From positions 57,130 to 121,129 of the forward strand of contig JAXMAM010000001.1 of NCBI GenBank assembly GCA_046350455.1: a stretch of DNA of 64,000 nucleotides, given 5' to 3'. This DNA comes from Phycisphaerales bacterium. GTDB lineage: Bacteria > Planctomycetota > Phycisphaerae > Phycisphaerales > SM1A02. Of the stretch, positions 39,026-63,417 are shown piece by piece (position 1 is the first letter of the stretch; every line of letters begins with the position of its first letter). The translations under genes were made by a program, and so were the position numbers. The notes under the pieces were generated by a model. That model was not told the origin of the DNA. It saw only the letters and a list, made by a program, of their open reading frames with translations, and searched no databases.

Positions 39026-39528
39026 GAAATTGGTGCCTGGCACGGGTGTCCCTACTTTCGGGGGGGCGACCGATGGTGGCGCTGCTGGGGGCGTGGGAGG
39101 GGCTGCGAAGCGGCTGCCGAAGCAGCGCACGCCGCCGCCGATCCGCCGGCACGCGCCGCCGCCGATCGTCCATCTCTCGCAGCGGCCGCAGCGCGGGGCC
39201 GGGGGGCGCGGCGTAGCGGCGTTGAGCGGAGCGAGGCAGGCTGTGTGGGTTCCTGGGCTCGCGGGCCGTTCCACCTGCCAAGCGCACGCGAAGCCGAGGC
39301 GAAGGCGGAACCTGGTGGAGCCGAGCCGTCCGCGGCCGCGCCCCCCGGCCCGCGCGGAGGCCGCGGGCGAGGCACGCACGGGACGGCCCGCACGGAGGCC
39401 GCGACACGGGGCGCTCGCGGTTCAGCGCGCGGTCCGGCGCGGGATCCCCGCGCCCCGCAAAAACCCGGGACAGGAGTGCCAGGCACCAGTTTCAGAAAGT
39501 AGGGACACCCGTGCCAGGCACCAATTTC
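39026..39528 (+). mobile_element. MITE-like non-autonomous element, copy 1 (about 503 bp, about 35-75-bp terminal inverted repeats beginning GAAATTGGTGCCTGGCACGGGTGTCCCTACTTTC)
   Basis: The left end gaaattggtgcctggcacgggtgtccctactttcgg and the right end ccgaaagtagggacacccgtgccaggcaccaatttc are reverse complements. The internal GC-rich core is the reverse complement of the core of the copy at 56133-56749. It contains no credible CDS. Confidence 0.6.
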
Positions 39529-41023
39529 AATCGTCCGCGTGGCCGAAGAGCGCGCGCACCACGCTGGCCATCCGGTCGGGCACAGCCAGCGCCACTTCGT
39601 CGCCTACCTCGAACACCGTGTCGCCACGCACGCGCTCTGCACGGCCGTTGCGCACCAGGAGCGCCACGGTCACCTCGCCGGGTAGCTTGGCCTCGGCCAG
39701 CGTCTTGCCCGCCACGGGCGAATCCGGATGCACGGGCATCATGATGAGCGCAGCGTCCATGGGCTGCGCGGTCACAATGTCAATGGTGGCCGAAGCCTGC
39801 GGCGCGGGCGGCAGCCGCAGCCGCAGCATGCCCATCACCCAGCGCACCGTGGCGCCAGGAATCACATTGCCTACGATCACGCAGAAGAACACCACCTTGA
39901 AGATGATCTGCAGTTCGTCGTTGCGCGTGTCGCCCGCGCTGACCATGAGCGGGATGGTCATCAGGATGACCGGCACTGCGCCGCGCAGCCCCAGCCACGC
40001 CACGCCTGCGATCTCGCTGGCTGGGAAGCCAAACGGCCACAGCACCAGGGTGACCACCAGCGGCCGTGTGATCAGCGCCAGCGCCAGCGCCAGCACGGTG
40101 CCGCCCACCGCCACAGGGAACTCCACCATCACAGCCGGATTCACCACGAACCCCAGCGCCACAAACATGACGATCTGCGCCAGGTACGCCATGGTGGCGT
40201 GGAACCGGATGAGCGTGGCGCTGAATGGCAGCTGCCGGCTGTTGCGCAGGTACAGCGCTGCCATGAACACCGCCAGCAGCCCGCTGGCGTGCAGGCTCTC
40301 TGCCACGCCATATGCCAGCAGCGCCACCGCCAGCGTGCGCGCGGGGTAGGCCTCGGGCGCGTCGTCGCGGAAGTGCTGGATGGCGTTCATGGCCACCCAG
40401 CCGATGAACACGCCCAGAAACGCGCCGCCTATCAGCTTCCACGCGATCCCCGGCAGCACCATCCAGCTGAAGCCGTCCCCCATGCTCATGGCTGTGAACG
40501 TGGCCACCAGGATGAACGCCATGGGGTCGTTCAGGCCGCTCTCCAGCTCCACGGTCTCCTTCACGCGGCCAGCGATGCGCTCGCCGCCCAGGATCTGCAG
40601 CACGCTGGCTGCGTCGGTGGAGCCCAGCACGGCGCCCAGGATGAGCGCTGCTGCAAAGGTGATGCCCGGAATGAGCAGCCACGCCACCACGCCGGTCACC
40701 AGGCTGATGCCCAGCACGCCCACCGTGGCCAGCGCGACCGCAGGCCAGAACACGCCGCGCACGCGCCGCAGGTCCGTGCACAGCCCGCCGTAGAACAGGA
40801 TGAGCGACAGCGCCACGTTGCCCACCACGTAGAGCACGTCGTAGTCGCCCACAGCGCTGCGCAGCTCTGGCTGGCGCCCCAGCGCCATGCCCAGCGCGAT
40901 GAACACCAGCGCCGTGGGAATGCCCAGCCGGCTGCTGGCCCGAGCGCTGAACGCAGCCGCGCCCAGGAGCAGCCCTGTGAGAGCCAGCAGCACTGGGAGC
41001 GTGTAGAAGAGCGCGCTTGACAT
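39527..41023 (-). CDS. CPA1-family Na+(K+)/H+ antiporter (NhaP-type) with C-terminal TrkA-C/RCK_C domain
   Basis: Start [15 protein letters not shown]. 10-12 TM helices. C-terminus ...[44 protein letters not shown]. The stop TGA overlaps the last 2 nt of the MITE TIR. Confidence 0.7.
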
Positions 41024-41051
41024 GGTGGCCAGTCCGGGGACGATACCCCGC

Positions 41052-42368
41052 ATGCAGCAGGCCTTCCCATCTGTCCAGCAGGTGCGCTACGAGGGCCCTG
41101 CCACCACCAACCCGCTTGCGTTCCGCCACTATGACCCGAGCGCGCTGGTGGAAGGCAAGCCCATGCGCGACCACCTGCGCTTTGCTGCGTGCTACTGGCA
41201 CACCATGCGCAACGGGCTGGCGGATCCCTTCGGCGCGCCCACGGCGCTCATGCCATGGGACGATGGCAGCAGCTCGGTGGACAACGCGCTGCGCCGGGTG
41301 GACGTGTTTATCGAGTTCCTCACCAAGTGCCAGATTGACTGGTACTGCTTCCACGACCGCGACCTTGCCCCGGAAGGCGCCACGCTCCGCGAGAGCAACA
41401 CCACCCTGGACCGCGTGGTGCAGCACCTGGCTGCGCAGACCAAGGCCGCTGGAAAGCGCCTGCTGTGGGGAACTGCCTGCCTGTTTGCCCACCCGCGCTA
41501 CCTGGCTGGCGCTGGCACCAGCCCCAGCGTGCAGGTCTTTGCGCACGCTGCAGCGCAGGTGAAGAAGGCCATGGAAGTGACGCACCAGCTGGGCGGACAG
41601 GGGTACGTCTTCTGGGGCGGGCGCGAGGGCTACACCAGCCTGCTCACCAAGGACATGCCGCGAGACCTGCGCCACCTGGCCAGCCTGCTGCACATGGCCG
41701 CTGCGTGGAAGAAGGAGCTGGGCTTCAGCGGCCAGCTGTACATCGAGCCCAAGCCGCGCGAGCCCAGCGTGCATCAGTACGACTACGACGCCGCCACCGT
41801 GCTCTCCTTCCTGCGCGAGCACGGCCTGCTGGGCACGTACACGCTGAACATCGAGACCAACCACGCCACGCTGGCCGGCCATGAGATGGAGCATGAGCTG
41901 CGCGTGGCTGCAGCAGCCAACGCGCTGGGCAGCATTGACGCCAACATGGGCACGCCCCACTGCGACTGGGACACAGACCAGTTCCCCACCGACCTCTACC
42001 TGACCACGCGCGTCATGCTGGTGGTGCTGGGCATGGGCGGGTTCACCACAGGCGGCCTGAACTTTGACGCCAAGCGCCGCCGCGAAAGCTGGGAGCCAGA
42101 GGACCTCTTCCGCGCGCACATCGCTGGCATGGACGCCTTTGCCTGCGGGCTGAAGGCAGCGGCTGCCATCCGCGCAGATGGCCGCCTGGCCCAGGCGCTG
42201 CGCGACCGGTACGGCAGCTGGGACACGCCGCTGGGCCAGCGCATCGAGGCAGGCAGCGCCACCATGGCAGAGCTGGAAGCCATGGTGCTGGACGCCGCAG
42301 TGCCGCCACCTCCCAGCGGGCAGCAGGAGCGGCTGGAAGCGCTCTTCAACCAGTTCATCCAGGGGTGA
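41052..42368 (+). CDS. xylA: xylose isomerase
   Basis: [28 protein letters not shown]..., FHDRD, WGGREG and further conserved blocks. About 438 aa. Divergent from the antiporter, 28 nt apart. Confidence 0.85.
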
Positions 42369-42427
42369 GCGGGCGCAGGGGCGGGTCCCGCGCAGGCGGC
42401 CCACGCAGCGCCGCGGGGCCCGCAGGC

Positions 42428-43429: not shown

Positions 43430-43494
43430 GGCGTGCAGGCGGAAAGTTCGCAGGTTCGCTGTGAATCTGGTCAGGGACGCCCGGAAAGCCGCCT

Positions 43495-46346: not shown

Positions 46347-47500
46347 CGGGCAACGCGCAGCCAGCGGCACCCACGCAGCCAGCGCAGCAGCCCACGCAGC
46401 CCACAGAGCCCACGCAGCCAGCGCAGCAGCCCACGCAGCCCACCGCGCCTGCGCAGCCAGCGCTGGTGCCAGCTCCAGCGCCGGACCGCCCTTCGCGGCA
46501 GGTGGTCATGCGCCTGGTGGAGAACGCGGACACGCTGTTTGCCAGCGTGCAGCTCAACCAGCTCTGGGGCATCACCGGTGCGCGGTTCGCGCCTCCGCCG
46601 CTCCTGCAGCAGCAGGGCGTGGTGGCAGAGGACAACCAGCTGCGCATGCCAGGCGTGCATCCTTCGGCGGTGGTGGAGCTGAAGGATGGCGGCATCCGCA
46701 TCAGCTTCCCTGTGCGCGGCAACGGGCTTGAGGCGCTGGCGTCGGTGATCCGCATGCGCACCAGCGCCAAGCCAACCGACTACGCCCGCGCAGTGCTGCG
46801 CCGTGTGCCGCTGCTCCTGACCGACGCCAACGGCGTGGTGGTGGCCACTGCGCGGGTGGAGGCAGAGCCGCGCGTGGAGCTCCGCCGCAACGCGCAGCAG
46901 GCGCAGCTGCCGCTGACCGTGCGCGAACTGGCCATCCGCGCCGCCGTGGTCCACGACACCCCGCAGGGGCGCGAGGAGCTGGACTCGCGCGAGATCATGC
47001 CCGGACAGTCGCTGCCGGTGAAGGGCCGCCACGGCGACCTGCTGGTGACCTTTGAGAACGCCTACTCCCTGGCCGTGACGCCAGAGTCTGCGTCCGCTGC
47101 CGCGGCAGAGCAGGCCCGGCTTGCAGACGAGATGCAGAAGATCAGCGCCCGCCTTGGCGCGGTGGCGGTCCTGCAGCGCAAGCTGAAGGGCGCGAGCAGC
47201 GTGACCGACACGGACGTGGCGCGCGCCATCACCGAAGTGCAGAACGCGCTGAACGACGACGAGAAGGAGCACACCAAGGATGCCAAGGGCAAGGCGCAGC
47301 CGCTGACGGACACAGAGACGCTCCAGCGCGTGCTGCCGCGCTTTGAGGCGCGCTGCAAGCTGGAGGCGGAGACCACGCGCACAGCGCTCCTGGAGGCGCA
47401 GAAGCGCTCCCGCACCACCCCGGACGACAAGCTGCGCGTGGAGTTCTACGGCACGGATGGCATGCTCCTGGGCGTGGTCCTCCCGGAAGGAAAGTCCTGA
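46181..47500 (+). CDS. Pro/Gln-rich linker (PVEPQPV.. / QPTQPTEPTQPAQQ repeats) plus about 330-aa C-terminal domain (operon gene D or 3' part of gene C)
   Basis: High GC3 from about 46210 to 47500. Stop overlaps the next start (TGATG at 47500). Confidence 0.45.
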   Translation: MASQGAGATAAGGGAGPEPAPVEPQPVGTQPVQTQSVQPQPVEPQPDKPSSSEPLTGNAQPAAPTQPAQQPTQPTEPTQPAQQPTQPTAPAQPALVPAPAPDRPSRQVVMRLVENADTLFASVQLNQLWGITGARFAPPPLLQQQGVVAEDNQLRMPGVHPSAVVELKDGGIRISFPVRGNGLEALASVIRMRTSAKPTDYARAVLRRVPLLLTDANGVVVATARVEAEPRVELRRNAQQAQLPLTVRELAIRAAVVHDTPQGREELDSREIMPGQSLPVKGRHGDLLVTFENAYSLAVTPESASAAAAEQARLADEMQKISARLGAVAVLQRKLKGASSVTDTDVARAITEVQNALNDDEKEHTKDAKGKAQPLTDTETLQRVLPRFEARCKLEAETTRTALLEAQKRSRTTPDDKLRVEFYGTDGMLLGVVLPEGKS

Positions 47501-48606
47501 TGCTGCACCTGACCACCTTGCTCTGCGTGCTGCTGCTCACGCCGCCACCGGTGCCGGGCGGCGCGCCCTTCAAGCCGCCGCTTGCACCGCGCAATCCGCC
47601 CGGGACGCGGCCCAACACGCCGCCCATCGGCCCGGGTGGCAAGCAGCCGCCCGCCACTCCCACCACGCCTTCGCAGCCCAAGGCGCCAGGTCCCACCAAG
47701 CCAGCGGACACCCAGTCTTCGCAGCCCGCCGAGGAGGCCAAGCCGCCAGCGGCCACCGTGGCGGACACGGATCTGGTGCTGCTGGACACCAAGCTGCTGG
47801 TGCCCAAGTTGGACGCCATGCACGACGTGCAGCCGCTCAGCGGCGTGATTGGGCGATGCCCATCCTCGGTGGTGTCGGCGGTGCCAGCGCTGCCAGATCA
47901 GAGCGGGGTGCTGACGTGGCAGACAGATCCTGACCAGGTGAGGCTGATGGCTCGCAACGCAGCGGGGCAGAGCAGCGTGCTGGGTGTGCTGCGCTGGAAG
48001 GGCGCCTCGCTGGAGTGGTCGTGGTCTCGCTGCAGCCAGTCTTCGTTCACGCAGGCGGTGGCCGACGCAGAGCGTCTCCTGCGCTGGATGACCATCCGGA
48101 TCACGCTGGAGGGCGGCAAGCAGAAGCTGGGCACTGCAGCAGCGCAGCGCGTGGTGCGCACGCTGCCTGGCTTTGGTGAGTCGGCCATCATGCAGCTTCC
48201 GCCCGTGCGTGGCCTGGTAGTGGTGCCAGAGGCATCCGCCGTGTGGACGGTTACGCCGCCAGGTGGTGGCCAGACCATCCACCTGGAGAGCCCTGCGGGC
48301 GGTCTGGACATCCGGGTGGACACGCAGCAGCGCCGGCTGGTGGCGGACTTCTCCGCAGCTGGCGGCAGCGTGACCGTGGCTGAGCTCAAGCAGACCATCG
48401 CAGACCGCACCAAGGAGCTGCAGCGCGCCACGCCAGACGAGAAGCTGCTGATCGAGGCGGAGATCCAGAAGCTGAAGAACGAATTGGCCGCGGCAGAGGC
48501 CGAGGCCCACAAGCGCGCCCCGTGGTCGCCGCTGCCTGTGCTGCGCATGCAGGACGAGGTGGGCCGCGTGGTGGCCGTGCTGGAACTGCAAGTGAAGGGA
48601 TCATGA
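47500..48606 (+). CDS. N-terminally anchored protein with TonB-like Pro-rich spacer and about 250-aa C-terminal domain (operon gene E)
   Basis: MLHLTTLLCVLLLT anchor, PPPVPGGAPFKPPLAPRNPPGTRPNTPPIGPGGKQPPATPTTPSQPKAPGPTKP, and a coiled coil at the C-terminus. Confidence 0.5.
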   Translation: MLHLTTLLCVLLLTPPPVPGGAPFKPPLAPRNPPGTRPNTPPIGPGGKQPPATPTTPSQPKAPGPTKPADTQSSQPAEEAKPPAATVADTDLVLLDTKLLVPKLDAMHDVQPLSGVIGRCPSSVVSAVPALPDQSGVLTWQTDPDQVRLMARNAAGQSSVLGVLRWKGASLEWSWSRCSQSSFTQAVADAERLLRWMTIRITLEGGKQKLGTAAAQRVVRTLPGFGESAIMQLPPVRGLVVVPEASAVWTVTPPGGGQTIHLESPAGGLDIRVDTQQRRLVADFSAAGGSVTVAELKQTIADRTKELQRATPDEKLLIEAEIQKLKNELAAAEAEAHKRAPWSPLPVLRMQDEVGRVVAVLELQVKGS

Positions 48607-51512
48607 ACAGCGTCACCCGTGAAATGTTCGACGCCGTGCGCGATGCACTGGCGGGCCGCGAGATGGACGAAGCCCAGCGCCGCGACCTGGCGCAGCGCGT
48701 GAGCGAGGCCGGCATGGCGTTCCGCCGCCGCGTGGATCGCGCCGTGCGCTATACGCGCGATGGTCTGCGCTTGGAGGCCGCTGCGGAGGCGGAGGCAGAT
48801 CCCTCCATCTTTGAGGTGGCGCAGGCGCTGGACAGCCCCGACCTGCACAAGTGGCGCGCAGCGTGCCAGCGTGCGCACCTGCCAGCGCCGGACGCCCCGG
48901 ATCCAGCCGCGCTCGGCGAGATCGAGGAGGCCATCGCCCAGCTGCGTCCGCTGCGCAAGTACATGGCCCGCATGCGCACGCTGGTGCTGAGCGACGCGCC
49001 GCCGTGGGACCGCCTTCTGGTGCTGCGCAGCCTGCGTGCGCACGACCCGCACAACCACGCATGGAAGGAGGACCAGGCTGCGCTGGAGCCAAAGGCCGCA
49101 GAGTGGCTGGCGGAGCGCTGCGAGAAGGCAGTGCAGGCAGGGCACCTGAACACCGCTGCGCGCATGCTGGAGCATCTGGAGGATGGCGGCTGGCGCTCGC
49201 TGGACGTCAGCCGCCCTGTTGGCCAGCTGCGCACTGCGCTGCACGCCGCCGTGGTGGCGGAGTGCGTGCGCAAGGCGGCCCCCGTGGTGGAGCGGCTGGA
49301 GGCGGAGTGGGCCGCGGAGGACGCGCCTGCCGTGCGCGCCACGCTGGCTGAATGGCATGAGCTGAACGCCCGCGCGGTGGAGCACGACGGCCAGATGGAG
49401 GACGCGCTCTTGGCCCGCGTGGCCCGCGTGGAGGAGTGGCTGGACGAACGCACGCAGCTGGCCGAGGCGCAGCGCGACCACCGTGACCGCGCGGCCGCGC
49501 TGCAGCGCATCCTGGACGCGCAGGTGGCGCCGCTGCAGGAGATCCGCGCCGCCCTGAAGGCCAGCGAGGACACCAGCGAGGGCTGCCCAGACGACCTGCG
49601 CCGCCGCACGCTGGACCGCATCGACCAGCTGGAGCGCAAGCAGCGCGCACGGCGCGCCGCCGTGGCGGGTGCTGGTCTGCTGGTGCTGGCTGCAGCGGTG
49701 ACCGGCGTGTGGCTGGGGGTGAAGTACGTCACCCACAACGCAAGCGTGTCCAACATCGCGGCGTCCATCCAGAATGCAGTGGACGCTGGGCGGCTTGAGG
49801 ATGCGGAGCGCATCCTGAAGGAGGCGCAGGCGGACCCGGCTGTGGCCGGCGACGAGCGCATCGGCATCGCTGGCGCAGCGCTGGCCCGGGCGCAGCTGGC
49901 GCGCACGCAGGCGGTGACCAACTTTGCGGCCCTCATGGCGGAGGCCGGAGATCCGGAAAGCGCTGCCGCGCACCCAGAAGCTGTGGAGGAGGCCAAGGAG
50001 CTGGCGCGCACGCCAGAGCAGCAGGCAGCGGTGGAGGAGTGGGTGCGCAAGCGCCGCCGCGCAGAAGCGCAGCGTGCCGCCGAGCGCACGCGCGACCTTT
50101 CGCAGCGCATTGCAGAGCTGGCCAAGGAGGTCAGCGCGGTGGATCCAAGCACCGCCGAGGCGCCCAGCACGCTCACTGCGCTGGAGACCAAGCTGCAGGC
50201 CCTGGAGCGGAGCGCGGCAGACCAGCCGGAACTTCGCCAGCAGCTTGACAACGTGCGTGCGCTGGTAGTGGCGCAGCGGTCCTCTGCGCAGAGCGCTGCG
50301 GCTGGTTCAGAGCGGCAGAGCGCACTTCAGGCGCTGGCCGCGCAGTCCACTGAACCGCTGGCGCTGGCTGGAGCCATCAAGGCCTTTGCTGACCGCTATC
50401 CCGGCACGCCAGAGGCCGTGGCGCTGGCGCAGGCCGCTGTGGCTGCGCCGCAGTGGAACGCCGTGGCGCAGTGGAACGAAGTCGTGGGCACGCGGCCGTG
50501 GGGGCGCGCGGCGCAGCTCTCCAACGAAGAGCGCGACACCATGCGCGACGCGCTCAAGGCGTACGTGGACGCGTATCCGGCGTCGCCCTTTGCGGCTCTG
50601 GCCAGGCAGATGATGGCCATGCTCTCCAACCCGGAGAGCTGGCGCGGCTGGGCCAGCGGCAAGCTGGACACGCTGCCTGCCTTCACCTACTACGTGGTGG
50701 ATCTCATTGATGGCTCGCGGCTGTACACCACCCAGGACCCAGCGCGCATCAACCTGCAGTCGCGGGCCAATCTGCCGCAGTACAAGGTGATTCCAGTGCT
50801 GCAGAAGGATGATCCGGCGGGCGGCACGGTGCTGATGGACGTGGACACCGCGCGCATCAAGAAGGCTGGGCCCTCCCCGCAGATGCTGCTGGCTGGCCAG
50901 CTGCGCCAGGTGGTGGCGGATCCAGAGCCTCAGGGCGACTGGGCCAACGGCATGACCGCTGCGCTGGCCGTGCTGCAGCGCGTGCGCGACGCACAGGACG
51001 TGGACGGCGCCTTTGCCGCACAGCTGGCGCGCGGCGTGCTGGAGTCGCTGGACGCCGAGGCGCCTGCCGAACTCCGCCCCGCGCTGCAGAGCGCGGCCAA
51101 GCGCATCGCGCGCGAGCGCCCAGAGGACGTGGCGTGGGTGGCGGGCTCGCAGCCCGCACGGGCACGCAGCGCCGAGCTGCGCGCGCTGCTCAAGCAGGTG
51201 CTCACGGTGGAGGCGTGGCGCAAGACGCTTGCGGAGGCGCCCGCAGCCGTGGCTGGCGCCATGATGCGGCCAGTGCCGGTGGGCATGCTGATGGGGCTGG
51301 AGAGCCGTGTGCTCACCACGCCGCCGGGCACCAGCGCGCCAGCGGGCGCCTCGCTGCTGGCGCTGAAGGTGGGCGTGGGCACTGTGCCATCGGAGCTGGT
51401 GCGCATCGGCCAGGTGGATGGCGCTGGCGCGGTCACGCTTGATCAGGCGGCAAGCGCCTTCCCCATGGGCACCATGGTCTTTGCCCTCCCTTCCAAGGGG
51501 GCAGGCCAGTGA
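48603..51512 (+). CDS. 996-aa bitopic alpha-helical/coiled-coil protein (about 390-aa cytoplasmic, one TM, about 580-aa periplasmic; TolA-like architecture) (operon gene F)
   Basis: ATGA overlap with gene E stop at 48603-48606. TM RRAAVAGAGLLVLAAAVTGVWLGV around residue 390. Ala/Glu/Arg/Gln-rich heptad-like segments. Strong GC3. Confidence 0.55.
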   Translation: MNSVTREMFDAVRDALAGREMDEAQRRDLAQRVSEAGMAFRRRVDRAVRYTRDGLRLEAAAEAEADPSIFEVAQALDSPDLHKWRAACQRAHLPAPDAPDPAALGEIEEAIAQLRPLRKYMARMRTLVLSDAPPWDRLLVLRSLRAHDPHNHAWKEDQAALEPKAAEWLAERCEKAVQAGHLNTAARMLEHLEDGGWRSLDVSRPVGQLRTALHAAVVAECVRKAAPVVERLEAEWAAEDAPAVRATLAEWHELNARAVEHDGQMEDALLARVARVEEWLDERTQLAEAQRDHRDRAAALQRILDAQVAPLQEIRAALKASEDTSEGCPDDLRRRTLDRIDQLERKQRARRAAVAGAGLLVLAAAVTGVWLGVKYVTHNASVSNIAASIQNAVDAGRLEDAERILKEAQADPAVAGDERIGIAGAALARAQLARTQAVTNFAALMAEAGDPESAAAHPEAVEEAKELARTPEQQAAVEEWVRKRRRAEAQRAAERTRDLSQRIAELAKEVSAVDPSTAEAPSTLTALETKLQALERSAADQPELRQQLDNVRALVVAQRSSAQSAAAGSERQSALQALAAQSTEPLALAGAIKAFADRYPGTPEAVALAQAAVAAPQWNAVAQWNEVVGTRPWGRAAQLSNEERDTMRDALKAYVDAYPASPFAALARQMMAMLSNPESWRGWASGKLDTLPAFTYYVVDLIDGSRLYTTQDPARINLQSRANLPQYKVIPVLQKDDPAGGTVLMDVDTARIKKAGPSPQMLLAGQLRQVVADPEPQGDWANGMTAALAVLQRVRDAQDVDGAFAAQLARGVLESLDAEAPAELRPALQSAAKRIARERPEDVAWVAGSQPARARSAELRALLKQVLTVEAWRKTLAEAPAAVAGAMMRPVPVGMLMGLESRVLTTPPGTSAPAGASLLALKVGVGTVPSELVRIGQVDGAGAVTLDQAASAFPMGTMVFALPSKGAGQ

Positions 51513-52543
51513 GCGAGGGCTGGCATGTCCGGCAGGCAGGCCGCCAGAGCGGGCCGTTTGACCTGGAGCGGCTGCGCACCATGGCGCAGCGTGGCGCGCT
51601 TACGCGGTTCCACCAGCTGAGTCGCGATGGCGAGGAGTGGATCTCTGCTGCCAAGGTGCGGGCCGTCTTCAACGAGGATGGGTCGGTGGCAACCGGCCCC
51701 ACAGACAGCGGGGCATCCTTCAGCAGCACCAGCGCCTTTGAGGCCTTTGCCAACATGCGCATGCCAGAGCTGCCGGCGCTGCCCACAGCGCACTTCCGCG
51801 GCGGGGCGTTTGGCGCCACCGTGCTGTGGGCGCAGATCGCAGCGCTGGCGCTGGGCACGCTGGCCATGGTGGCTCCCACCAGCCGCGATGCTGATGGCGC
51901 GCTGCAGTGGTGGTTCCAGGAGGGGGCGCTGAGCATCTCGGTGCATGCCATGACGCTGCTGGCGTTCCTCACGTGGTGGGTGGTGGCGTTCCTGCCGCCC
52001 AACGCGTCGGTGGGCGCGTCGCTGGCTGCGGTGTCTGCGGTGCTGGCTGCAGGCAGCATGCTGCCGGCTGTGTCCTGGGCGCCGTGGGCGCTGCCAGCTG
52101 CCGCGGTCCTGCCGCTGGCGGCCATGCTGGTTGCCTTCGGCACAGAGGGCTCCAAGGCCGTGGGCGCGGTGGCCATCACGCTGTGCATCGAGGCCGGCCT
52201 GGCCCTGGTGGTGGCGGGCCTCCTGCTGGCATTCAACTTCAGCGGCTGGGGCCTGGCGGCCGTGCTGGTGCAGCTGGCTGGAACCGTGGCGCTGATCATC
52301 GGCGCTGTCCGCACCAAGAGCGGGTTGTCGCACGCGTTTGCGCTCACCGTGGGCGGCGCTGCGGCCATGGCCGTCACCATGTTCCTGGCGAGCGCTGCAG
52401 CCCTGGCTGGTGAACAGCCTGCGCATGGAGCGGCTGGAGCAACGTCCGCTGCGCTGTGCGTGTGCCTCTCCGTGCTAGCGTGGAGCGCGTCGCACCAGGC
52501 GCTGGGCGGTCCGCTGATCATCAAGTCAACCACAGAGTCATGA
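51509..52543 (+). CDS. DUF4339 (GYF-like) N-terminal domain fused to about 6 TM helices (operon gene G)
   Basis: GTGA overlap with gene F stop. WHVRQAGRQSGPFDLERLRTMAQRGALTRFHQLSRDGEEWISAAKV matches the DUF4339 pattern (W...G...GP.....L......G.....T.VW......W). Hydrophobic helices follow. Confidence 0.55.
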   Translation: MSEGWHVRQAGRQSGPFDLERLRTMAQRGALTRFHQLSRDGEEWISAAKVRAVFNEDGSVATGPTDSGASFSSTSAFEAFANMRMPELPALPTAHFRGGAFGATVLWAQIAALALGTLAMVAPTSRDADGALQWWFQEGALSISVHAMTLLAFLTWWVVAFLPPNASVGASLAAVSAVLAAGSMLPAVSWAPWALPAAAVLPLAAMLVAFGTEGSKAVGAVAITLCIEAGLALVVAGLLLAFNFSGWGLAAVLVQLAGTVALIIGAVRTKSGLSHAFALTVGGAAAMAVTMFLASAAALAGEQPAHGAAGATSAALCVCLSVLAWSASHQALGGPLIIKSTTES

Positions 52544-53439
52544 GCGCACAGACACCCACCACCGCAGATCCTTCGTCGCACAAGCAGCGCGCAGAGGCGC
52601 CCAGCAGCCAGCACCGCCTGGACGCCCGCAAGGGCGACCTGGAGTGCATGGTGGGCCTGCCATCTGGGCGGTACACCTCAGCCAGCGCCACGCTGTGGCT
52701 GGCTGGGGCGGCGGCGCTCACGGCGGCGTGCGGCGGGCTGCTGCTCCTGCTGGCGCCGCAGGGCTACGTGCTGCACATGCTCAACCGGTGCTGGACCAAC
52801 TGGGCGGTGGTGCTGCTCACGTGGTGGAGCCTGTGCATCCTGATCAACAAGTGGATCAAGACCAGCATCCAGATGAAGGCAGTGCGCATTGACACGCTGG
52901 TGCCGCGCCGCGGCGACTTTGTGCTGAGCCCCGGCACTGCAGGCGACGTGCTGCGCCACATGCGCGCCATCGCGGAGCGGCCCAAGGACTTCCTGCTGTT
53001 CCGGCGCATTGACATGGCGCTTTCCAACCTGGGCAACATCGGTGAGGTGCGCGACGTGGGCGCTGTGCTGGAGGGCCAGGCAGACTCGGACGCCAGCCAG
53101 GTGGACAGCAGCTACACCGTGCTGCGCGCGGTCATCTGGACCATCCCCATCCTGGGGTTCATCGGCACGGTGATCGGTCTGTCGGACGCCATCGGCAGCT
53201 TTACGGAAGTGCTCACGCAGCCAGGTGCGGACGTGGCGGCCATCAAGACCAAGCTGGGACCGGTGGTCACAGGCCTGGCCACGGCGTTTGAGACCACGCT
53301 GGTGGCGCTGCAGGCAGCGGTCATCGTGCAGCTGATCTCCACGTGGGTGTTCAAGCGCGAGGAGGACATGCTGGACGCCATGAGCGAATACACCACCGAG
53401 CACATCCTGAGCCGGCTGAAGCTGACCGACTGGAAGTGA
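52540..53439 (+). CDS. MotA/TolQ/ExbB-family proton channel subunit (operon gene H)
   Basis: ATGA overlap with gene G stop. Four TM helices. C-terminal signature ILGFIGTVIGL...LGPVVTGLATAFETTLVALQAAVIVQL. Confidence 0.65.
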   Translation: MSAQTPTTADPSSHKQRAEAPSSQHRLDARKGDLECMVGLPSGRYTSASATLWLAGAAALTAACGGLLLLLAPQGYVLHMLNRCWTNWAVVLLTWWSLCILINKWIKTSIQMKAVRIDTLVPRRGDFVLSPGTAGDVLRHMRAIAERPKDFLLFRRIDMALSNLGNIGEVRDVGAVLEGQADSDASQVDSSYTVLRAVIWTIPILGFIGTVIGLSDAIGSFTEVLTQPGADVAAIKTKLGPVVTGLATAFETTLVALQAAVIVQLISTWVFKREEDMLDAMSEYTTEHILSRLKLTDWK

Positions 53440-53457
53440 CGCCGGAGCGCCTGCACC

Positions 53458-54288
53458 ATGGGACGCCGCAAGAAGAAGCAGCAGGAGTCGCTCACGCTGT
53501 TCTCCTTTCAGGACATCATGGCATGCCTGACGGGCGTGCTCATCCTGATCTCGCTGCTGCTTGCACTGGACGGCCTGAGCGACCGCATTGACGACGCTGG
53601 CGCGCCTGGATCCGCCGCAGAGGCCGATGCCGCGCAGCGCGTTGAGCAGCTGGCAGCGGAGATCAAGACGCTGGAGGAGCAGGTGGACGTGCGCATGCGC
53701 GGCCTGCCTGTGACCGAGGACGAGGTGAAGGTGCTGGAGGCGCGCGCAGCCAGCATGCAGCGCGAACTGGATGAGGCCCAGCAGCGCGACCGCACGCTGG
53801 CGGCAGAGGTGGCGCGCCTGGAAGAGGAGGAGAAGGCGCTGATGGTGCGGCGCCAGGCTGCGGAGCGCACCCTGGTGGAGCAGGAGCTCCAGAAGCGGCG
53901 GCAGCGCGTGCAGTACCGCCCCGGCGGGCAGCAGGAGCGGACGCCGCTGTTCGTGGAGGTCTCGGCCAGTGGACTGCGCGTGGGCAAGCTGGACGCAGAG
54001 CGCACGCCAGTGATGCTGGCTGATCTGCCAGGCGCTGCGCCGCTGCCACCCAGGCCTGAAGAGGGGCTGGCCAAGGCGCTGAATCCGCTCGGGCCGGATG
54101 CGTACTACGTGCTGTTCGTGGTGCACCCGGATGGCATCAAGCGGTTCGAGGCGCTGCGCGCAGCGGTCTTCCGCAATGGCTACGAAGTGGGCTGGCAGCT
54201 GTGGGACGCAGCTGCGGGCGCGTTCCTGCAGCCAGCACCTGTGGTCACGCCCGCTGCGGCACCAGCAGGCGCGGGGGGTGGCTCATGA
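53458..54288 (+). CDS. TolR/ExbD/MotB-like subunit 1 with conserved TM Asp, long coiled coil and ExbD-like periplasmic domain (operon gene I)
   Basis: MGRRKKKQQESLTLFSFQDIMACLTGVLILISLLL (compare MotB YADFMTLLMAFFLLL). Coiled coil. ...YYVLFVVHPDGIKRFEALRAAVFRNGYEVGWQL. Confidence 0.55.
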   Translation: MGRRKKKQQESLTLFSFQDIMACLTGVLILISLLLALDGLSDRIDDAGAPGSAAEADAAQRVEQLAAEIKTLEEQVDVRMRGLPVTEDEVKVLEARAASMQRELDEAQQRDRTLAAEVARLEEEEKALMVRRQAAERTLVEQELQKRRQRVQYRPGGQQERTPLFVEVSASGLRVGKLDAERTPVMLADLPGAAPLPPRPEEGLAKALNPLGPDAYYVLFVVHPDGIKRFEALRAAVFRNGYEVGWQLWDAAAGAFLQPAPVVTPAAAPAGAGGGS

Positions 54289-55091
54289 ACCGCGGGCCGT
54301 TCAGGCGCCGGCGGCGGCGGCGAGCTGGGTCGCTGGCGGGCGACCCGTTCATCCTCTTCCTGGATGCCATCACCGATGCGCTGGGCGTGGTGATGTTCCT
54401 GCTGTTGATGGTGGTGCTGGCAGCACGCGCGTCCAACGTGGTGTCCAGGCTGGGCGGTGGCAAGCAGGCAGCGGCGGCAGCATTGCAGGAGGAGCGCGAT
54501 GCGCTGGCTGTGGAGCTGGCAGCGCTGCCGCCTGCGGGGGACCCGGAGGTGGCGGATCGCTGGCGCGCTGCGCAGGCCACGCTGGCCAGCCTGCGGCCGC
54601 AGCTGGACCGCGCTGCGCCTGCCATCCGCATGCGCGTGAATGAGTCGCAGTCCAAGCGAGTGGCGCTGACGTCGCTGGACACCGAGGTGCAGACGCTGGA
54701 GGCGCGCGTGAAGGCGCAGGCTGCCACGGCCAGCGTGACGCCTTCGCTGGTGCGCGTCAGCCGGTTCAAGAGCGACGCGCGCAAGCCCGTGCTCCTGGGG
54801 CTCAACCAGGGTGCGCTGTCTGCGCTCAAGGTGTCGCACGACACCAAGAGCATTGCGCCACCTGCCAGCGGCACGGCGGTGCCCACAGCCGCGGCAGCGC
54901 GCGCTGCGCTGGAGACGCTGCTGTCTGGCCAGCCGCGCGACACGTATCGAGTGGAGCTGGTGGTGTGGGCCAATTCCTTCGCGCAGGCCAAGCTGGTGGA
55001 GGAGGCGCTGGCCGAGATGGGGTACGACGTGAACCCGCTGCCAGTGGTGGACGGAGGCGTGCTGGAGCCCGGTGCTGGCGGCGTGCAGTAG
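54285..55091 (+). CDS. TolR/ExbD-like subunit 2 with conserved TM Asp (operon gene J)
   Basis: ATGA overlap with gene I stop. DPFILFLDAITDALGVVMFLLLMVV (compare ExbD/TolR TPLIDVMLVLLIIF). C-terminus YRVELVVWANSFAQAKLVEEALAEMGYDVNPL. Confidence 0.55.
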   Translation: MNRGPFRRRRRRRAGSLAGDPFILFLDAITDALGVVMFLLLMVVLAARASNVVSRLGGGKQAAAAALQEERDALAVELAALPPAGDPEVADRWRAAQATLASLRPQLDRAAPAIRMRVNESQSKRVALTSLDTEVQTLEARVKAQAATASVTPSLVRVSRFKSDARKPVLLGLNQGALSALKVSHDTKSIAPPASGTAVPTAAAARAALETLLSGQPRDTYRVELVVWANSFAQAKLVEEALAEMGYDVNPLPVVDGGVLEPGAGGVQ

Positions 55092-55139
55092 GAGGGGCGG
55101 GGTGCGGCGGGAGCGCGGCGCGGCGTACCATGGTGGGAC

Positions 55140-56132
55140 ATGCGCCGCGTTGCAGCCAGAGTGTTGGTCCTTGCTGCGGCGGCGTGTCTGCTGAGCGCGA
55201 GCCTGGCGGGGCTGGCTGGGTGCGGCAGGCCCATCACCGTGCAGGCATTGGCAGCGGGGTCGGATGCGCCGGTGGATGATGTGCGCATCTATCGCCACAT
55301 GTTCACGTGGTTCACGCTGTTCCCAGGCAAGAAGAGCGTGGAGACTGGGCCCGATGGCACAGCGGTGGTCACAGTGGGGCCGTCGAACACCAATCTCACC
55401 ATGCTTCGCCAGGGGTACGAGCCAGTGCTTTTGGGCGTGTTCGAGCAGGGCGCGCCCAGCATCCAGCCAGATGACGGTGGATACGACTATGTGCTGCTGT
55501 ACTCCACCATCAAGGACAAGCAGGTAGTGCCTGTGGAGTTCCGGCCTGTGCGGCGCGTGCCGCTGCAGCTGCATGTGGTGGATGCGGACAGCGGGCAGCC
55601 GCTGGCAGGTGCCACAGTGTTTGGGACCACGTATCTGTATCTGCCGCAGCCAGGCGTGGAGGCCGACTGGGGCTATCCGCCCGTGCAGGAAGTGACCACC
55701 AGCGCGCAGGGCCAGGCCGTGGTGGACCAGGTGAGCGGATTCCGCAATCGCGTGACAGTGCGCAAGCCGGGCTACTGCGATGCGGAGCTGGACATTGATG
55801 GCCGCAAGCTGGGCAGCGAGGCCGCGCGCGAGGTGGCGCTGCGGCCCTTCCGTGTGAAGCACGTGGATTTTCAGGTGTTTGACGCGTCCACGCGCATGCC
55901 TGTGGCCGGCGCAGAGGTGGTGCTGGGCGAGCAGCGCGACGGTCTCCCCATGAGCCCAGATGGCTGGAAGGCGGTCACTGGACCGACGGGCCGCACGGGC
56001 GTGCAGGCAGTGCCCAACATGGAGCCGCCGCTGATGACCGTGCGTGCCAAGGGCTACCCGGAATGGCGCGGCGCCCCGCTGTGGCGCGCGCTGCAGGACG
56101 GCGGCACCAAGCGCATCGAAATCCGCAAGTAG
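55140..56132 (+). CDS. lipoprotein with two or three carboxypeptidase-regulatory-like (transthyretin-fold) domains, in the Pal-like position (operon gene K)
   Basis: Lipobox LAGLAGC. TGPDGTAVVTV / DADSGQPLAGATVFG / VFDASTRMPVAGAEVVLG...TGPTGRTGV. The stop TAG is immediately followed by the MITE TIR. Confidence 0.55.
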   Translation: MRRVAARVLVLAAAACLLSASLAGLAGCGRPITVQALAAGSDAPVDDVRIYRHMFTWFTLFPGKKSVETGPDGTAVVTVGPSNTNLTMLRQGYEPVLLGVFEQGAPSIQPDDGGYDYVLLYSTIKDKQVVPVEFRPVRRVPLQLHVVDADSGQPLAGATVFGTTYLYLPQPGVEADWGYPPVQEVTTSAQGQAVVDQVSGFRNRVTVRKPGYCDAELDIDGRKLGSEAAREVALRPFRVKHVDFQVFDASTRMPVAGAEVVLGEQRDGLPMSPDGWKAVTGPTGRTGVQAVPNMEPPLMTVRAKGYPEWRGAPLWRALQDGGTKRIEIRK

Positions 56133-56749
56133 GAAATTGGTGCCTGGCACGGGTGTCCCTACTTTCGGAACCTCGTGCCAGGCACTCCTGTCCCGGGTTT
56201 CTGAGGCGCGCCGTAAGACCGTGCGGTACCGCGCGCTGAACCGCGCGCTGAACCGCGCGACGGACCGCAGGCACCGCGTGCCGCGGCCTCCGCGCGGTCC
56301 GGGGGGCGCGGCCGCGGACGGCTCGGCTCCACCAGGTTCCGCCTTCGCCTCGGCTTCGCGTGCGCTCGGCAGGTGGAACGGCCCGCGAACCGGGGAACCC
56401 ACACATCCTGCCTCGCTCCGCTCAACGCCGCTACGCCGCGCCCCCCGGTCCCGCGCTGCGGCCGCTGCGAGAGCGAGGTGATCAGCCGCTGCGAGAGCGA
56501 GGTGATCAGCCGCTGGGCGCGGAAGCCGGTCGAGAGTGGTGCTTGGCAGCACGTTCCCAGGCGACACGTGCCAGGTCACCATGCTCACTGGCACCTGCGT
56601 CCCAGGCACCTGTGTCCCAGGCACCCTTGACCCTGGCATCACTCTCCCTGGCACCACCCTCTGCGGCACGTATCTCCGAAAGGAGGGACACCCGTGCCAG
56701 GCACGAGTTTCGTCAGAAACCCGGGACACCAGTGCCTGGCACCAATTTC
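56133..56749 (+). mobile_element. MITE-like element, copy 2 (about 617 bp, inverted relative to copy 1, with internal tandem duplications)
   Basis: The same TIRs as copy 1. The internal core is the reverse complement of the copy 1 core. It contains the tandem duplications cgcgctgaaccgcg x2 and gctgcgagagcgaggtgatcagcc x2. The 3' end of asd lies inside the right end. Confidence 0.6.
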
Positions 56750-57768
56750 GGGAGGTGCTCGGCGATTTGGATGCCGGTCAGCGCAGCGCCCTTGCGGATT
56801 TGGTCGCCGGCCACAAAGAGCCACAGGCCCAGGCCCGCGGGCTGGCTGGCGTCGCTACGAATGCGGCCCACCAGCACTGGGTCGCGGCCGGACGCGTGGA
56901 TCGGCTCGGGGAAGCGGTTGGCCGCGCGGTCGTCCACCACCTCCAGGCCGGGCGCCTTTGCCAGAATCTGCCGCGCCGCATCCTCGGTGAGCGGCTTGCG
57001 CAGCGTGAGGTTGATGGCCTCGGAGTGCGACCGCAGCACTGGCACACGCACGCACGTGGCGGCCACGCCAATGGTGCTGTCCTCCATGATCTTGTGCGTC
57101 TCCAGCACCAGCTTGCGCTCCTCCTCGTTCATGCCGTCTGCGCCCACGGCGCTGTTGTGGCTGAACAGGTTGAACAGATACTGCCGCCCGAACACCGCGG
57201 TGGTGTACGGCTTTCCCGCAGCAAACTCGTGCGCCTGGCCTTCCAGCTCCGCCATGGCCTGCGCACCAGCGCCGCTGGCCGCCTGATACGTGCTCACCAC
57301 CATGCGCGCTACGCCCACGGCGCGGTGAATGGGCGCCACCGCCATGAGCGCGATGATCGTGCTGCAGTTGGGCACCGCCACAATGCAAGGCTCGGTCCGC
57401 CCCTTCAGCACGTGGCCGTTCACCTCCGGAATGACCAGCGGCACCGCAGAGTCCATGCGGAACGCGCTGCTGTTGTCCACCACCCACGCGCCCTCTGCGA
57501 CAGCGCGCGGTCCCCACTCCTTGCTCACGCCCTTGCCAGCGCTGAAGAACGCAATGTCCACGCCGCGGAAGCAGCCCTCGCGGAGCGCCTCCACCTGCAC
57601 AGGCTGACCGTTCACCATGAGCGTCTTGCCAGCCGACCGCGCACTGGCGAACAGCCGCACCTGGCCATGCGCCACGTGCCGCTCCGCCAGCAGCTGCAGG
57701 AACTCCTGGCCCACCGCACCAGTGGCGCCAACAACAGCAACGCAGGGCATGGAATGAGTCTGGCTCAT
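56713..57768 (-). CDS. asd: aspartate-semialdehyde dehydrogenase (C-terminal 11 codons supplied by the MITE TIR)
   Basis: MPCVAVVGATGAVGQEF (NAD(P) binding), active-site Cys region, 351 aa. The tail ...[19 protein letters not shown] ends inside the element. Confidence 0.85.
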   Translation of the reverse strand: MSQTHSMPCVAVVGATGAVGQEFLQLLAERHVAHGQVRLFASARSAGKTLMVNGQPVQVEALREGCFRGVDIAFFSAGKGVSKEWGPRAVAEGAWVVDNSSAFRMDSAVPLVIPEVNGHVLKGRTEPCIVAVPNCSTIIALMAVAPIHRAVGVARMVVSTYQAASGAGAQAMAELEGQAHEFAAGKPYTTAVFGRQYLFNLFSHNSAVGADGMNEEERKLVLETHKIMEDSTIGVAATCVRVPVLRSHSEAINLTLRKPLTEDAARQILAKAPGLEVVDDRAANRFPEPIHASGRDPVLVGRIRSDASQPAGLGLWLFVAGDQIRKGAALTGIQIAEHLPKLVPGTGVPGF

Positions 57769-63381: not shown

Positions 63382-63417
63382 GGAAAATGGTGCCTGGCAC
63401 TCCTGTCCCTACTTTCT
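63382..63417 (+). repeat. solo MITE TIR (degenerate), 13 nt upstream of the zwf start
   Basis: ggaaaatggtgcctggcactcctgtccctactttc versus the TIR gaaattggtgcctggcacgggtgtccctactttc. Confidence 0.45.

What the first reader, a model, noticed from the sequence alone, without database searches (positions are those of the whole stretch)
56713..56749. MITE insertion rewrites gene ends: asd C-terminus (…[12 protein letters not shown]) is TIR-encoded, and the antiporter stop codon at 39527 uses the TIR's last nucleotides
The asd ORF reads through the copy-2 right TIR for its final 11 codons before a TGA inside the element, so the native C-terminus was replaced. At copy 1 the antiporter TGA overlaps the last 2 nt of the TIR. 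At the other end of copy 2, the TAG of operon gene K abuts the first TIR base. These insertions landed precisely at gene 3' ends and produced chimeric but apparently tolerated termini.
Basis: seen in the sequence. Interest (0 to 1): 0.55.

Follow-up and report, generated by a model that had tools for sequence, protein, structure and literature searches.

The report
Repeat-encoded tail on Asd enzyme
A short repeated DNA element sits against the ends of several genes in this Phycisphaerae-like bacterium and supplies the last 11 amino acids and the stop codon of the essential enzyme Asd; this is real, but it is a known kind of event and changes only a dispensable tail.

Summary
All three observations are correct. 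The asd ORF (56713-57768, minus strand) ends ...IQIAEHL|[12 protein letters not shown]. Its last 37 nt are one copy of a ~34-nt repeat unit, GAAAnTG-GTGCCWGGCAC-nnn-TGTCCC-nnn-TTTC, plus TGA. The unit has 7 copies in the window against 0 expected.

The tail is not native. In 120 orthologues the conserved sequence stops at ...IAE[RHL]L and the tails differ. Only close strains (92.6-99% asd DNA identity) carry the unit. Repeat-free syntenic relatives (77-80% Asd identity) have asd and gene K convergent, overlapping by 29 nt or 55 nt apart.

So a 617-bp element entered directly after the gene K stop codon and cut off the non-conserved Asd tail. The frame entered is the one that stops soonest.

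"Rewrites gene ends" is overstated. The antiporter and gene K keep native-length C-termini. Only the antiporter's stop codon changed, from TAG in relatives to TGA here.

"MITE" is only partly right. There are no target-site duplications. The element is a mosaic of units and a separate ~190-nt palindromic core, more like REP/BIME repeats.

In other copies the outer units also lie 0-2 nt from stop codons. Repeats overlapping gene 3' ends are already documented (Coxiella QMITEs, ERIC/RU-1, GTAG REPs). This is a new member of a known kind, of modest interest.

The parts
56713..56749 (-). Outermost repeat unit (flavour 2: GAAATTGGTGCCAGGCACTGGTGTCCCGGGTTTC, then TGA). It encodes Asd residues [11 protein letters not shown] and the stop codon.
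   Evidence: the same junction occurs in L003-L009
56713..57768 (-). asd (aspartate-semialdehyde dehydrogenase), 351 aa. The conserved fold ends near ...IQIAEHL (residue ~339).
   Evidence: Pfam PF01118 and PF02774; alignment to PDB 2yv3 ends at residue 338; 120 orthologues
56678..56711 (-). Second unit (flavour 1: GAAACTCGTGCCTGGCACGGGTGTCCCTCCTTTC). It pairs with the first unit into a long hairpin, and the asd TGA lies in the loop.
   Evidence: (78-nt stretch with both units: -36.6 kcal/mol, z = -3.5)
56133..56749 (.). Composite repeat 'copy 2' (617 bp). It fills the whole space between the gene K stop and the conserved end of asd.
   Evidence: repeat-free relatives L013 and L014 have -29 and +55 nt here
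56133..56201 (+). End A unit doublet (56133-56166 flavour 1; 56168-56201 flavour 2). It starts directly after the gene K TAG and folds into a 15-bp-stem hairpin (16 stacked pairs with one bulge).
   Evidence: -36.2 kcal/mol, z = -4.9
56280..56469 (.). ~190-nt core repeat. It is itself an imperfect palindrome with ~35-nt inverted ends.
   Evidence: 87-96% identical copies in the window (39174-39366), L021 (x2), L022, L023 (x2) and L005 (x2); a conserved 38-nt block also occurs in L012
56536..56675 (.). Degenerate array of unit-like fragments (GGCACCTGYGTCCCAGGCACC...), next to a 24-nt tandem duplication at 56456-56503.
55140..56132 (+). Gene K (CarboxypepD_reg-like domain), 330 aa. Its native C-terminus ...KRIEIRK and native TAG abut the unit.
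   Evidence: (orthologues end ...KRLELKKK*...LRRK*, all with TAG)
39026..39528 (.). Composite repeat 'copy 1' (503 bp), inverted relative to copy 2. It carries one unit at 39026-39059 (+) and two at 39460-39493 and 39495-39528 (-).
   Evidence: (I11: 34 nt, 100% complementary)
39527..41053 (-). K+/H+ antiporter (Na_H_Exchanger + TrkA_C), 508 aa. The C-terminus has native length. The TGA (39527-39529) shares its G and A with the unit.
63383..63416 (+). Solo unit about 20 nt upstream of the G6PD (zwf) start codon.
   Evidence: an orthologous solo unit occurs in L003

Best explanation
In a recent ancestor of this species-level lineage, a non-coding mosaic repeat was inserted immediately 3' of the gene K stop codon. 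The repeat consists of ~34-nt units (GAAAnTG-GTGCCWGGCAC-nnn-TGTCCC-nnn-TTTC) flanking a ~190-nt palindromic core. The lineage is Phycisphaerae-like with high G+C.

In this clade asd and gene K converge, and their 3' ends touch or overlap. The insertion therefore fell inside the non-conserved 3' tail of asd. Translation of asd now runs from ...IAEHL into the outermost unit. It enters the one frame of three that stops at the unit's own ...TTTC-TGA. The result is a 12-residue tail, [12 protein letters not shown], in place of the native tail.

The catalytic fold is untouched, so the chimera is tolerated. It has persisted in frame in strains whose asd DNA has diverged by 7%.

At the antiporter and at gene K the same kind of unit simply abuts or overlaps the stop codon by 0-2 nt, and the protein is unchanged.

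Shown: the repeat identity of the tail; its absence from orthologues; the empty-site state in relatives; the intact domains; persistence across strains.

Inferred: the direction of the event (insertion rather than loss); that insertion right after stop codons is a property of the element; the mobility mechanism, which is unknown and may be transposase- or REP/RAYT-like.
For: The unit is a real repeat: 7 copies against 0 expected, with inverted arms of 84-100% complementarity.

The tail equals the unit in one frame.

Orthologue tails are variable. Only P0001 (97% identical; tail PKLVPGTPVPGF) and the frameshifted P0007 carry the unit.

The Asd fold ends at residue ~338-340.

Syntenic relatives without any unit:
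- L013: asd and gene K overlap by 29 nt.
- L014: a 55-nt spacer.
- L012: a lectin gene lies between them.

Gene K's TAG and C-terminus are conserved in all of these.

The other two frames through the unit would add 36 or more than 200 residues.

The junction, frame and TGA are kept in L004-L007, where asd DNA is 92.6% identical.

The antiporter C-terminus has native length, and a relative stops at the same codon with TAG.

Further copies place outer units at stop codons:
- L021: CGC-TA[G]AAATTGG.
- L023: CGC-T[GA]AAGTGG.
Against: No target-site duplication flanks any of the 5 composite copies. Classical cut-and-paste insertion is therefore not demonstrated.

The exact pre-insertion sequence cannot be reconstructed. 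Removing the 617 bp gives an asd tail 27 codons long that overlaps gene K by ~80 nt, which is longer than in L013.

A 97% strain (L004/L005) has the same asd junction but a differently oriented and duplicated interior. The asd-proximal unit and the rest of 'copy 2' may therefore have separate histories.

No parent transposase or RAYT gene was found. About 27 window ORFs were scanned.
Confidence: 0.8

Rival explanations
1. The units are REP/BIME-like palindromic repeats rather than the terminal inverted repeats of a MITE. They would be spread by a tyrosine (RAYT/TIRYT-type) transposase or by recombination. 'Copy 2' would then be a mosaic that accreted in the asd/gene K gap, and the unit inside asd arrived or was duplicated independently of the rest.
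For: There are no target-site duplications.

Units occur solo (63383; L010, L011), as tandem doublets and as triplets.

Two unit flavours alternate, as in the REP types of BIMEs.

The palindromic centre GGTGCCWGGCACC lets doublets fold into a 15-bp-stem hairpin (16 stacked pairs with one bulge).

The interior differs between 97% strains while the asd junction is constant.

The core exists without units in L012.

REP termini are reported to supply stop codons to flanking ORFs, and Planctomycetes carry such families (PMC3733652).
Against: A single unit is not a good stem-loop (z = -0.4 to -1.5).

No conserved GTAG or CGTC tag lies at the gene-proximal end, and the flanks 5' of GAAA vary.

No RAYT gene was seen in the window.

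Composite copies do have clean inverted outer units, as a MITE would.
Confidence: 0.4
2. The position at stop codons is functional rather than incidental. The unit doublets would act as 3'-end RNA hairpins, stabilising mRNA, terminating or insulating transcription between convergent genes, or tuning termination. They would be retained by selection, and the Asd tail would be a by-product.
For: Doublet hairpins are strong: -36 kcal/mol, z = -4.9 and -3.5.

Four outer ends lie 0-2 nt from stop codons, and asd lies inside a unit.

The element separates two convergent genes that overlap in a relative.

The junction is stable across 7% DNA divergence.
Against: No U-tract follows the hairpins, and no terminator-like site was found in the element.

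Other outer ends lie 15-50 nt upstream of start codons or ~75 nt after stops. One sits behind a native intrinsic terminator.

There is no covariation evidence and no expression data.

Relatives manage without the element.
Confidence: 0.15
3. The tail is an annotation or assembly artefact, and the real Asd ends elsewhere.
For: The near-identical MAG copy (L003) carries a 1-nt insertion in asd and a 1-nt deletion in the unit. This shows that the region is error-prone in assemblies. Contigs also break inside the unit (L008, L009, L018).
Against: The same junction and in-frame TGA are found in the window and in six independent metagenome contigs. There is no earlier in-frame stop.
Confidence: 0.03

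Closest known systems
Coxiella burnetii QMITE1/QMITE2 (PMC5896051)
   Same: These are small non-coding inverted-repeat elements that overlap the 3' ends of functional genes by 1-50 bp (ubiB 2 bp, kdgK 1 bp, pntAA 42 bp). In the Dugway strain EnhC has a C-terminal extension encoded by a QMITE2, with the stop just after it.
   Different: The host phylum and the sequence are different. The QMITEs are described with direct repeats, whereas no target duplication is seen here. The present element is a mosaic of 34-nt units plus a separate core.
Enterobacterial ERIC/RU-1 repeats fused to gene 3' ends (Delihas 2007, PMC2759123)
   Same: Repeat insertion removes the normal stop codon. The repeat then supplies a C-terminal peptide lying outside the conserved domain, for example in E. 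carotovora amidase ECA3499.
   Different: RU-1 is a single 127-bp element. Here a 34-nt terminal unit supplies only 11 codons and brings its own TGA.
REP/BIME elements, GTAG- and CGTC-tagged REPs (Di Nocera et al. 2013, PMC3733652)
   Same: These are short palindromic units, found solo, in dimers and in mosaics. They lie mostly downstream of ORFs and between convergent genes. Their termini often provide the stop codon of the flanking ORF, and some lie inside ORFs. Such families are reported in Planctomycetes.
   Different: The gene-proximal end here is GAAA, not a GTAG or CGTC tag. A single unit is a poor hairpin, and only doublets fold well. The link to a RAYT could not be tested.
Rickettsia palindromic elements (RPE) and Neisseria Correia elements (from my own knowledge, not checked with the tools)
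   Same: Both are small repeats tolerated inside or at the ends of coding sequences, adding peptide segments or changing gene ends.
   Different: RPEs insert in frame in the middle of genes. Correia elements duplicate a TA target and carry promoters and RNase III sites. None of this is shown here.

Membership tests
[quoted passage not shown] | Small size (under ~800 bp) with no transposase gene | tested here: met
   The copies are 503 and 617 bp. ORFs called across other copies (P0241-P0243) have no Pfam domain.
[quoted passage not shown] | Terminal inverted repeats | tested here: met
   Copy 1: 34 nt, 100% complementary (I11). Copy 2: 37 nt, 84% (I16).
[quoted passage not shown] | Target-site duplication flanking each copy | tested here: not met
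   No direct repeat of 2 nt or more flanks any of 5 composite copies (window x2, L021, L022, L023).
[quoted passage not shown] | Multiple dispersed copies in one genome | tested here: met
   There are two copies plus a solo unit in the 64-kb window. Further copies lie on two other contigs of MAG GCA_044230435.1 (L021, L022) and on ENA contigs (L023-26). Metagenome contigs break inside the unit.
[quoted passage not shown] | A related autonomous insertion sequence with the same ends | not testable with these tools
   Pattern scans of genome contigs and metagenome contigs did not retrieve the source genome. No transposase was found among ~27 window ORFs.
REP / BIME | A 20-40-nt imperfect palindrome able to form a stem-loop | tested here: inconclusive
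   The unit has a 12-13-nt palindromic centre, GGTGCCWGGCACC. Single units fold no better than shuffles (z = -0.4 and -1.5). Tandem doublets fold strongly (z = -4.9 and -3.5).
REP / BIME | A conserved GTAG or CGTC tag at one end | tested here: not met
   The flanks 5' of GAAA vary (TAG, TAC, CCC, ATT, CTA, ACG and others). GTAG occurs only inside flavour-1 units, as the reverse complement of CCCTAC, and not in flavour 2.
REP / BIME | Mostly extragenic, downstream of ORFs, in mosaic clusters | tested here: met
   All copies are intergenic or at gene ends. Two unit flavours and a core are combined in varying order.
REP / BIME | An associated RAYT (Y1/HUH transposase) gene | not testable with these tools
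   The complete genome was not available, and none was found in the window.
Aspartate-semialdehyde dehydrogenase (Asd) | An NAD-binding domain and a dimerisation/catalytic domain, both complete | tested here: met
   PF01118 matches residues 10-122 and PF02774 matches 145-326, both full length. The alignment to PDB 2yv3 covers residues 10-338.

The most novel reading that the evidence does not exclude
The 34-nt unit family may be actively targeted to the position immediately 3' of stop codons. Four of four stop-adjacent outer ends lie within 0-2 nt: TAG|GAAA, TA[G]AAA and T[GA]AA twice. The targeting would come from a so far unidentified recombinase that leaves no target duplication. Its three GGTG(T)CC half-sites would be the protein-binding site. 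If so, this would be a previously undescribed stop-codon-proximal insertion system in Phycisphaerae that regularly remodels 3' gene ends and 3' UTR hairpins.
Probability: 0.15. Interest if true: 0.55.

Novelty: new member of a known kind. Interest (0 to 1): 0.3.

Why it matters
This is a clean, comparatively dated example of a selfish intergenic repeat rewriting the C-terminus of an essential housekeeping enzyme without harm. The empty site in relatives and the persistence across strains give it a time frame.

It shows how tightly packed convergent genes leave only the few bases around stop codons open to insertion.

For annotation, it warns that Asd tails and similar repeat-derived termini (..KLVPGTGVP..) in these MAGs are not protein features.

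The unit family itself may be worth a genome-wide look. It combines three half-sites, strong doublet hairpins, no target duplications and frequent contact with stop codons. The gene-end effect, however, is already well documented in other bacteria.

Tried and rejected
(a) Rfam. No family reached the gathering score anywhere in the window. In the element only chance-level miRNA-type hits appeared (E = 0.17 or worse).

(b) tRNA/tmRNA origin of the core's ...GGCTCGGCTCCACCA... block. ARAGORN found no gene, so this was rejected.

(c) Sigma-54 promoter reading of CTGGCACGGGTGTCCC. The -24 TGGCAC part fits, but the -12 TTGC is replaced by TCCC, so this was not pursued.

(d) Intrinsic terminator. No terminator-like site lies within the element.

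(e) Structured RNA in the core. RNAalifold gives a long hairpin from the inverted ends, but the covariation term is unfavourable (+3.9) and the pairs are almost invariant. There is no support beyond palindromy.

(f) Pattern scans of genome contigs and metagenome contigs for the unit. These returned only 4 isolated hits. L001 and L002 are probably chance. L010 and L011 are real solo units in other organisms. The source genome is not in those collections.

(g) Target-site duplications, including the test for flanks exchanged by inversion between the two inverted copies. None were found.

(h) A concatenated six-frame 'protein' of the core was used to fish for spurious ORFs. This worked and gave L021-L026.

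(i) A transposase or RAYT in the window. None was found among ~27 ORFs.

Full report
OBSERVATION

The asd ORF runs from 57768 to 56713 on the minus strand. It is 351 aa long and ends ...[26 protein letters not shown]. In the sense of the gene the 3' end reads ...GAG CAC CTC CCG AAA TTG GTG CCA GGC ACT GGT GTC CCG GGT TTC TGA.

From the G of CCG onwards, this sequence is one copy of a repeat unit: GAAAnTG-GTGCCWGGCAC-nnn-TGTCCC-nnn-TTTC. The unit matches 7 places in the window at 3 or fewer mismatches, against 0.00 expected from shuffles. The places are 39026, 39467, 39502, 56133, 56685, 56723 and 63383. A weaker eighth copy lies at 56168.

The units form the inverted ends of two composite repeats. 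These are 39026-39528 (503 bp) and 56133-56749 (617 bp). They are inverted relative to each other, and their interiors are 83-89% identical.

The antiporter's stop codon is TCA at 39527-39529 on the plus strand. It shares two bases with the unit, which ends at 39528. The TAG of gene K (56130-56132) is followed directly by the unit at 56133.

The asd/unit junction recurs in an NCBI MAG (L003) and in six independent metagenome contigs (L004-L009). It is not an assembly artefact.

IS THE ASD TAIL NATIVE?

No. Among the 120 best Asd homologues the conserved sequence ends at ...GIQIAE[R/H/L]L. After that the tails vary in sequence and length: LKPAAG, LAR, AGRALQVAGK, AATSSSVQAA, AGRAEAGASVRVPGVARGAGV and others.

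Only two homologues carry the unit. P0001 is 97% identical and ends PKLVPGTPVPGF. P0007 is 99% identical and reads the same DNA in another frame after a frameshift.

Solved Asd structures align only to query residue 338-340. T. thermophilus 2yv3 ends 5 residues later. Both Pfam domains are complete.

THE EMPTY SITE

Relatives with 77-80% Asd identity keep the same gene order: G6PD, Rce1-like, IGPS, ApaG, asd, then convergent gene K and its operon. None of them has a unit anywhere in about 17 kb.

- In L013, asd and the gene K orthologue overlap by 29 nt. The Asd tail LAATSSSVQAA* is read antisense to the end of gene K.
- In L014 they are 55 nt apart.
- In L012 a lectin gene lies between them.

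Gene K ends ...KR[IL][ED][IL][KR]+K followed by TAG in all of these loci. Its end in the window is therefore native.

The junctions compare as follows:

- L013: ...GAA TTG CTC GCG G|CTA CTT...
- Window: ...GAG CAC CTC CC|617 bp|CTA CTT...

The repeat thus sits 0 nt from the gene K stop and inside the non-conserved tail of asd.

Parsimony over these outgroups makes it an insertion in the window's lineage. This is an inference. The insertion predates the split from the L004-L007 strain. That strain's asd DNA is 92.6% identical, and it keeps the junction, the frame and the TGA.

Of the three frames through the unit, the one used stops after 11 codons. The others would add 36 or more than 200 residues.

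THE OTHER TWO GENE ENDS ARE NOT REWRITTEN

The antiporter ends ...ALFGHADD*. All close and distant orthologues end at the same position (FGHAQH*, FGEEEE*, FGELHD* and others). The TrkA_C domain matches to residue 504 of 508.

An 84% relative (L016/L017) and a 65% relative (L019) have no unit, and they stop at the same codon with TAG. The only change in the window is TAG to TGA, with the G and A shared with the unit's GAAA.

Gene K is untouched. Chimeric termini therefore applies to one protein of the three.

WHAT THE ELEMENT IS

I retrieved further copies by searching a concatenated six-frame translation of the core for spurious ORFs. I then fetched the contigs that encode them. These were L021 and L022, both from MAG GCA_044230435.1, and L023-L026 from ENA.

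Findings from these copies:

(i) The unit has two flavours...CCCTACTTTCGG and ...CCCGGGTTTCTGA. It occurs solo, in tandem doublets and triplets, and as inverted outer ends.

(ii) Its centre, GGTGCCWGGCACC, is palindromic. Single units fold no better than shuffles. Tandem doublets pair into a hairpin with a 15-bp stem (16 stacked pairs with one bulge): -36.2 kcal/mol with z = -4.9, and -36.6 kcal/mol with z = -3.5. The asd TGA lies in the loop of such a hairpin.

(iii) The ~190-nt core is a separate imperfect palindrome with ~35-nt inverted ends. It often occurs twice per locus in opposite orientations. A conserved 38-nt block of it occurs, without units, in the 80% relative L012. RNAalifold gives a hairpin but no covariation support.

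(iv) The spacers between units and core vary in length and sequence.

(v) No target-site duplication flanks any of the five composite loci. The bases 5' of GAAA are not conserved.

(vi) In the 97% strain the asd-proximal doublet is followed by a core in the opposite orientation and then a second core. The interior therefore rearranges while the asd junction stays fixed.

(vii) Solo units exist in other organisms. L010 has one next to a tRNA gene. L011 is a lower-GC contig with one placed just after a stop codon.

(viii) There is no Rfam family, tRNA, terminator or sigma-70 signal in the element.

(ix) No transposase was found among ~27 window ORFs.

The label MITE fits on size, inverted ends and copy number. 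It fails on target duplications. The mosaic, multi-flavour architecture resembles REP/BIME repeats. The mobility mechanism remains unknown.

POSITION RELATIVE TO GENES

There are ten outer ends across the five composite loci.

- Four lie 0-2 nt from a stop codon or overlap it: gene K TAG|GAAA; L021 glycosyltransferase TA[G]AAA; the antiporter T[GA]AA; the L023 212-aa gene T[GA]AA.
- One lies 37 nt inside asd.
- Two lie about 75 nt after stops. One of these sits directly behind a native hairpin-plus-T-run terminator.
- Three lie 15-50 nt upstream of start codons.

With ancestral spacers of about 50-130 nt, four hits within 2 nt of a stop are unlikely under uniform placement. My rough estimate is below 1e-4, and this is an inference rather than a computation on a full genome.

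Two explanations are possible. The element may prefer the site just after stop codons, perhaps through GA/G microhomology or the rare A/T-containing sites of a ~70% G+C genome. Alternatively, only such placements survive in tightly packed DNA.

On this view the Asd tail replacement is collateral damage. The insertion went right after the gene K stop, where asd happened to overlap.

COMPARISON WITH WHAT IS KNOWN

Small repeats overlapping or extending gene 3' ends are well documented.

- Coxiella QMITE1/2 overlap functional genes by 1-50 bp and extend EnhC by 33 residues (PMC5896051).
- ERIC/RU-1 fusions remove the stop codon and add C-terminal peptides outside conserved domains (PMC2759123).

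The present case is a new sequence family in a poorly studied lineage, with an unusually clear empty-site comparison. It is not a new kind of phenomenon.

VERDICT

The Asd tail is repeat-encoded and replaced a non-conserved native tail. The antiporter and gene K proteins are unchanged. 'MITE' is an approximate label.

Novelty: new member of a known kind. Interest: 0.3.

The most novel reading not excluded is a dedicated stop-codon-proximal insertion system that leaves no duplication. I give it a probability of about 0.15.

Noticed in passing
L004/L005 (ENA contigs, Asd 97% identical) versus window 56133-56749: The asd/unit junction is the same, but the interior differs. The core next to asd is in the opposite orientation. 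A palindromic 'double-sided' unit (GGGACAGTGGTGCCTGGCACTCCTGTCCC) follows it, and a second core lies ~230 nt further on. This is strain-level rearrangement or nesting inside the repeat.
   Followed up: partly
L003 6583-7620 (MAG GCA_044230435.1, 99% identical to the window): asd carries a 1-nt insertion (ATTCCTGG versus ATTCTGG) that shifts the last quarter of the protein out of frame. There is also a 1-nt deletion in the unit (GGGCTCTGA versus GGGTTTCTGA). This is either MAG consensus error or a pseudogene. If only the first change is an error, that strain's Asd would read ~90 codons into the repeat.
   Followed up: partly
L012 1-330 (80% relative), upstream of G6PD: A ~170-nt tandem duplication contains the conserved core block GGCGGAACCTGGTGGAGCCGAGCCGTCC. 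Here the block forms a perfect 8-bp hairpin (GGCTCGGC...GCCGAGCC). No 34-nt units are present. The core family is therefore older and wider than the unit family.
   Followed up: partly
window 63383-63416: A solo unit lies ~20 nt upstream of the G6PD (zwf) start codon, in the likely 5' UTR or promoter. The orthologous copy in L003 has different flanking bases (CCTAC versus AATAG).
   Followed up: partly
window 39026-39059: The left end of copy 1 lies ~50 nt upstream of an ECF sigma-factor gene (38464-38976, minus strand). The repeat may therefore sit in that gene's promoter region.
   Followed up: no
window ~42400-56132, and L013, L014, L019: Gene K closes a conserved operon. It encodes VWA, DO-GTPase2, GAP1-N2/GAP1-M, a ~980-aa protein, a GYF_2 protein, a MotA/ExbB protein and several proteins with no recognised domain. 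The operon is conserved in 77-80% relatives. It has the look of a GTPase-centred system of unknown role.
   Followed up: no
window 6969-7133, 11958-12039, 29444-29590, 300-446: There are repeated dockerin-like coding segments (DLNNDGVVDGTDLGILLGDWG...) in several large secreted-protein genes on both strands (families D2 and D5, pairs I3-I8).
   Followed up: no
window 56536-56675 and 56456-56503: An array of degenerate 15-nt unit fragments (GGCACCTGYGTCCCAGGCACC) lies beside an exact 24-nt tandem duplication (GCCGCTGCGAGAGCGAGGTGATCA x2) inside copy 2. L022 10400-10520 has a comparable degenerate array (GGCACRCGGCACAC...).
   Followed up: no
L010 771-806 and L011 1655-1690: Unit-like sequences occur in unrelated metagenome contigs. 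One is beside a tRNA gene. The other, on a lower-GC contig, begins a few bases after a TGA stop. The motif GGGACAnnnGTGCCAGGCACCAnTTTCTGG is therefore not confined to one species.
   Followed up: no
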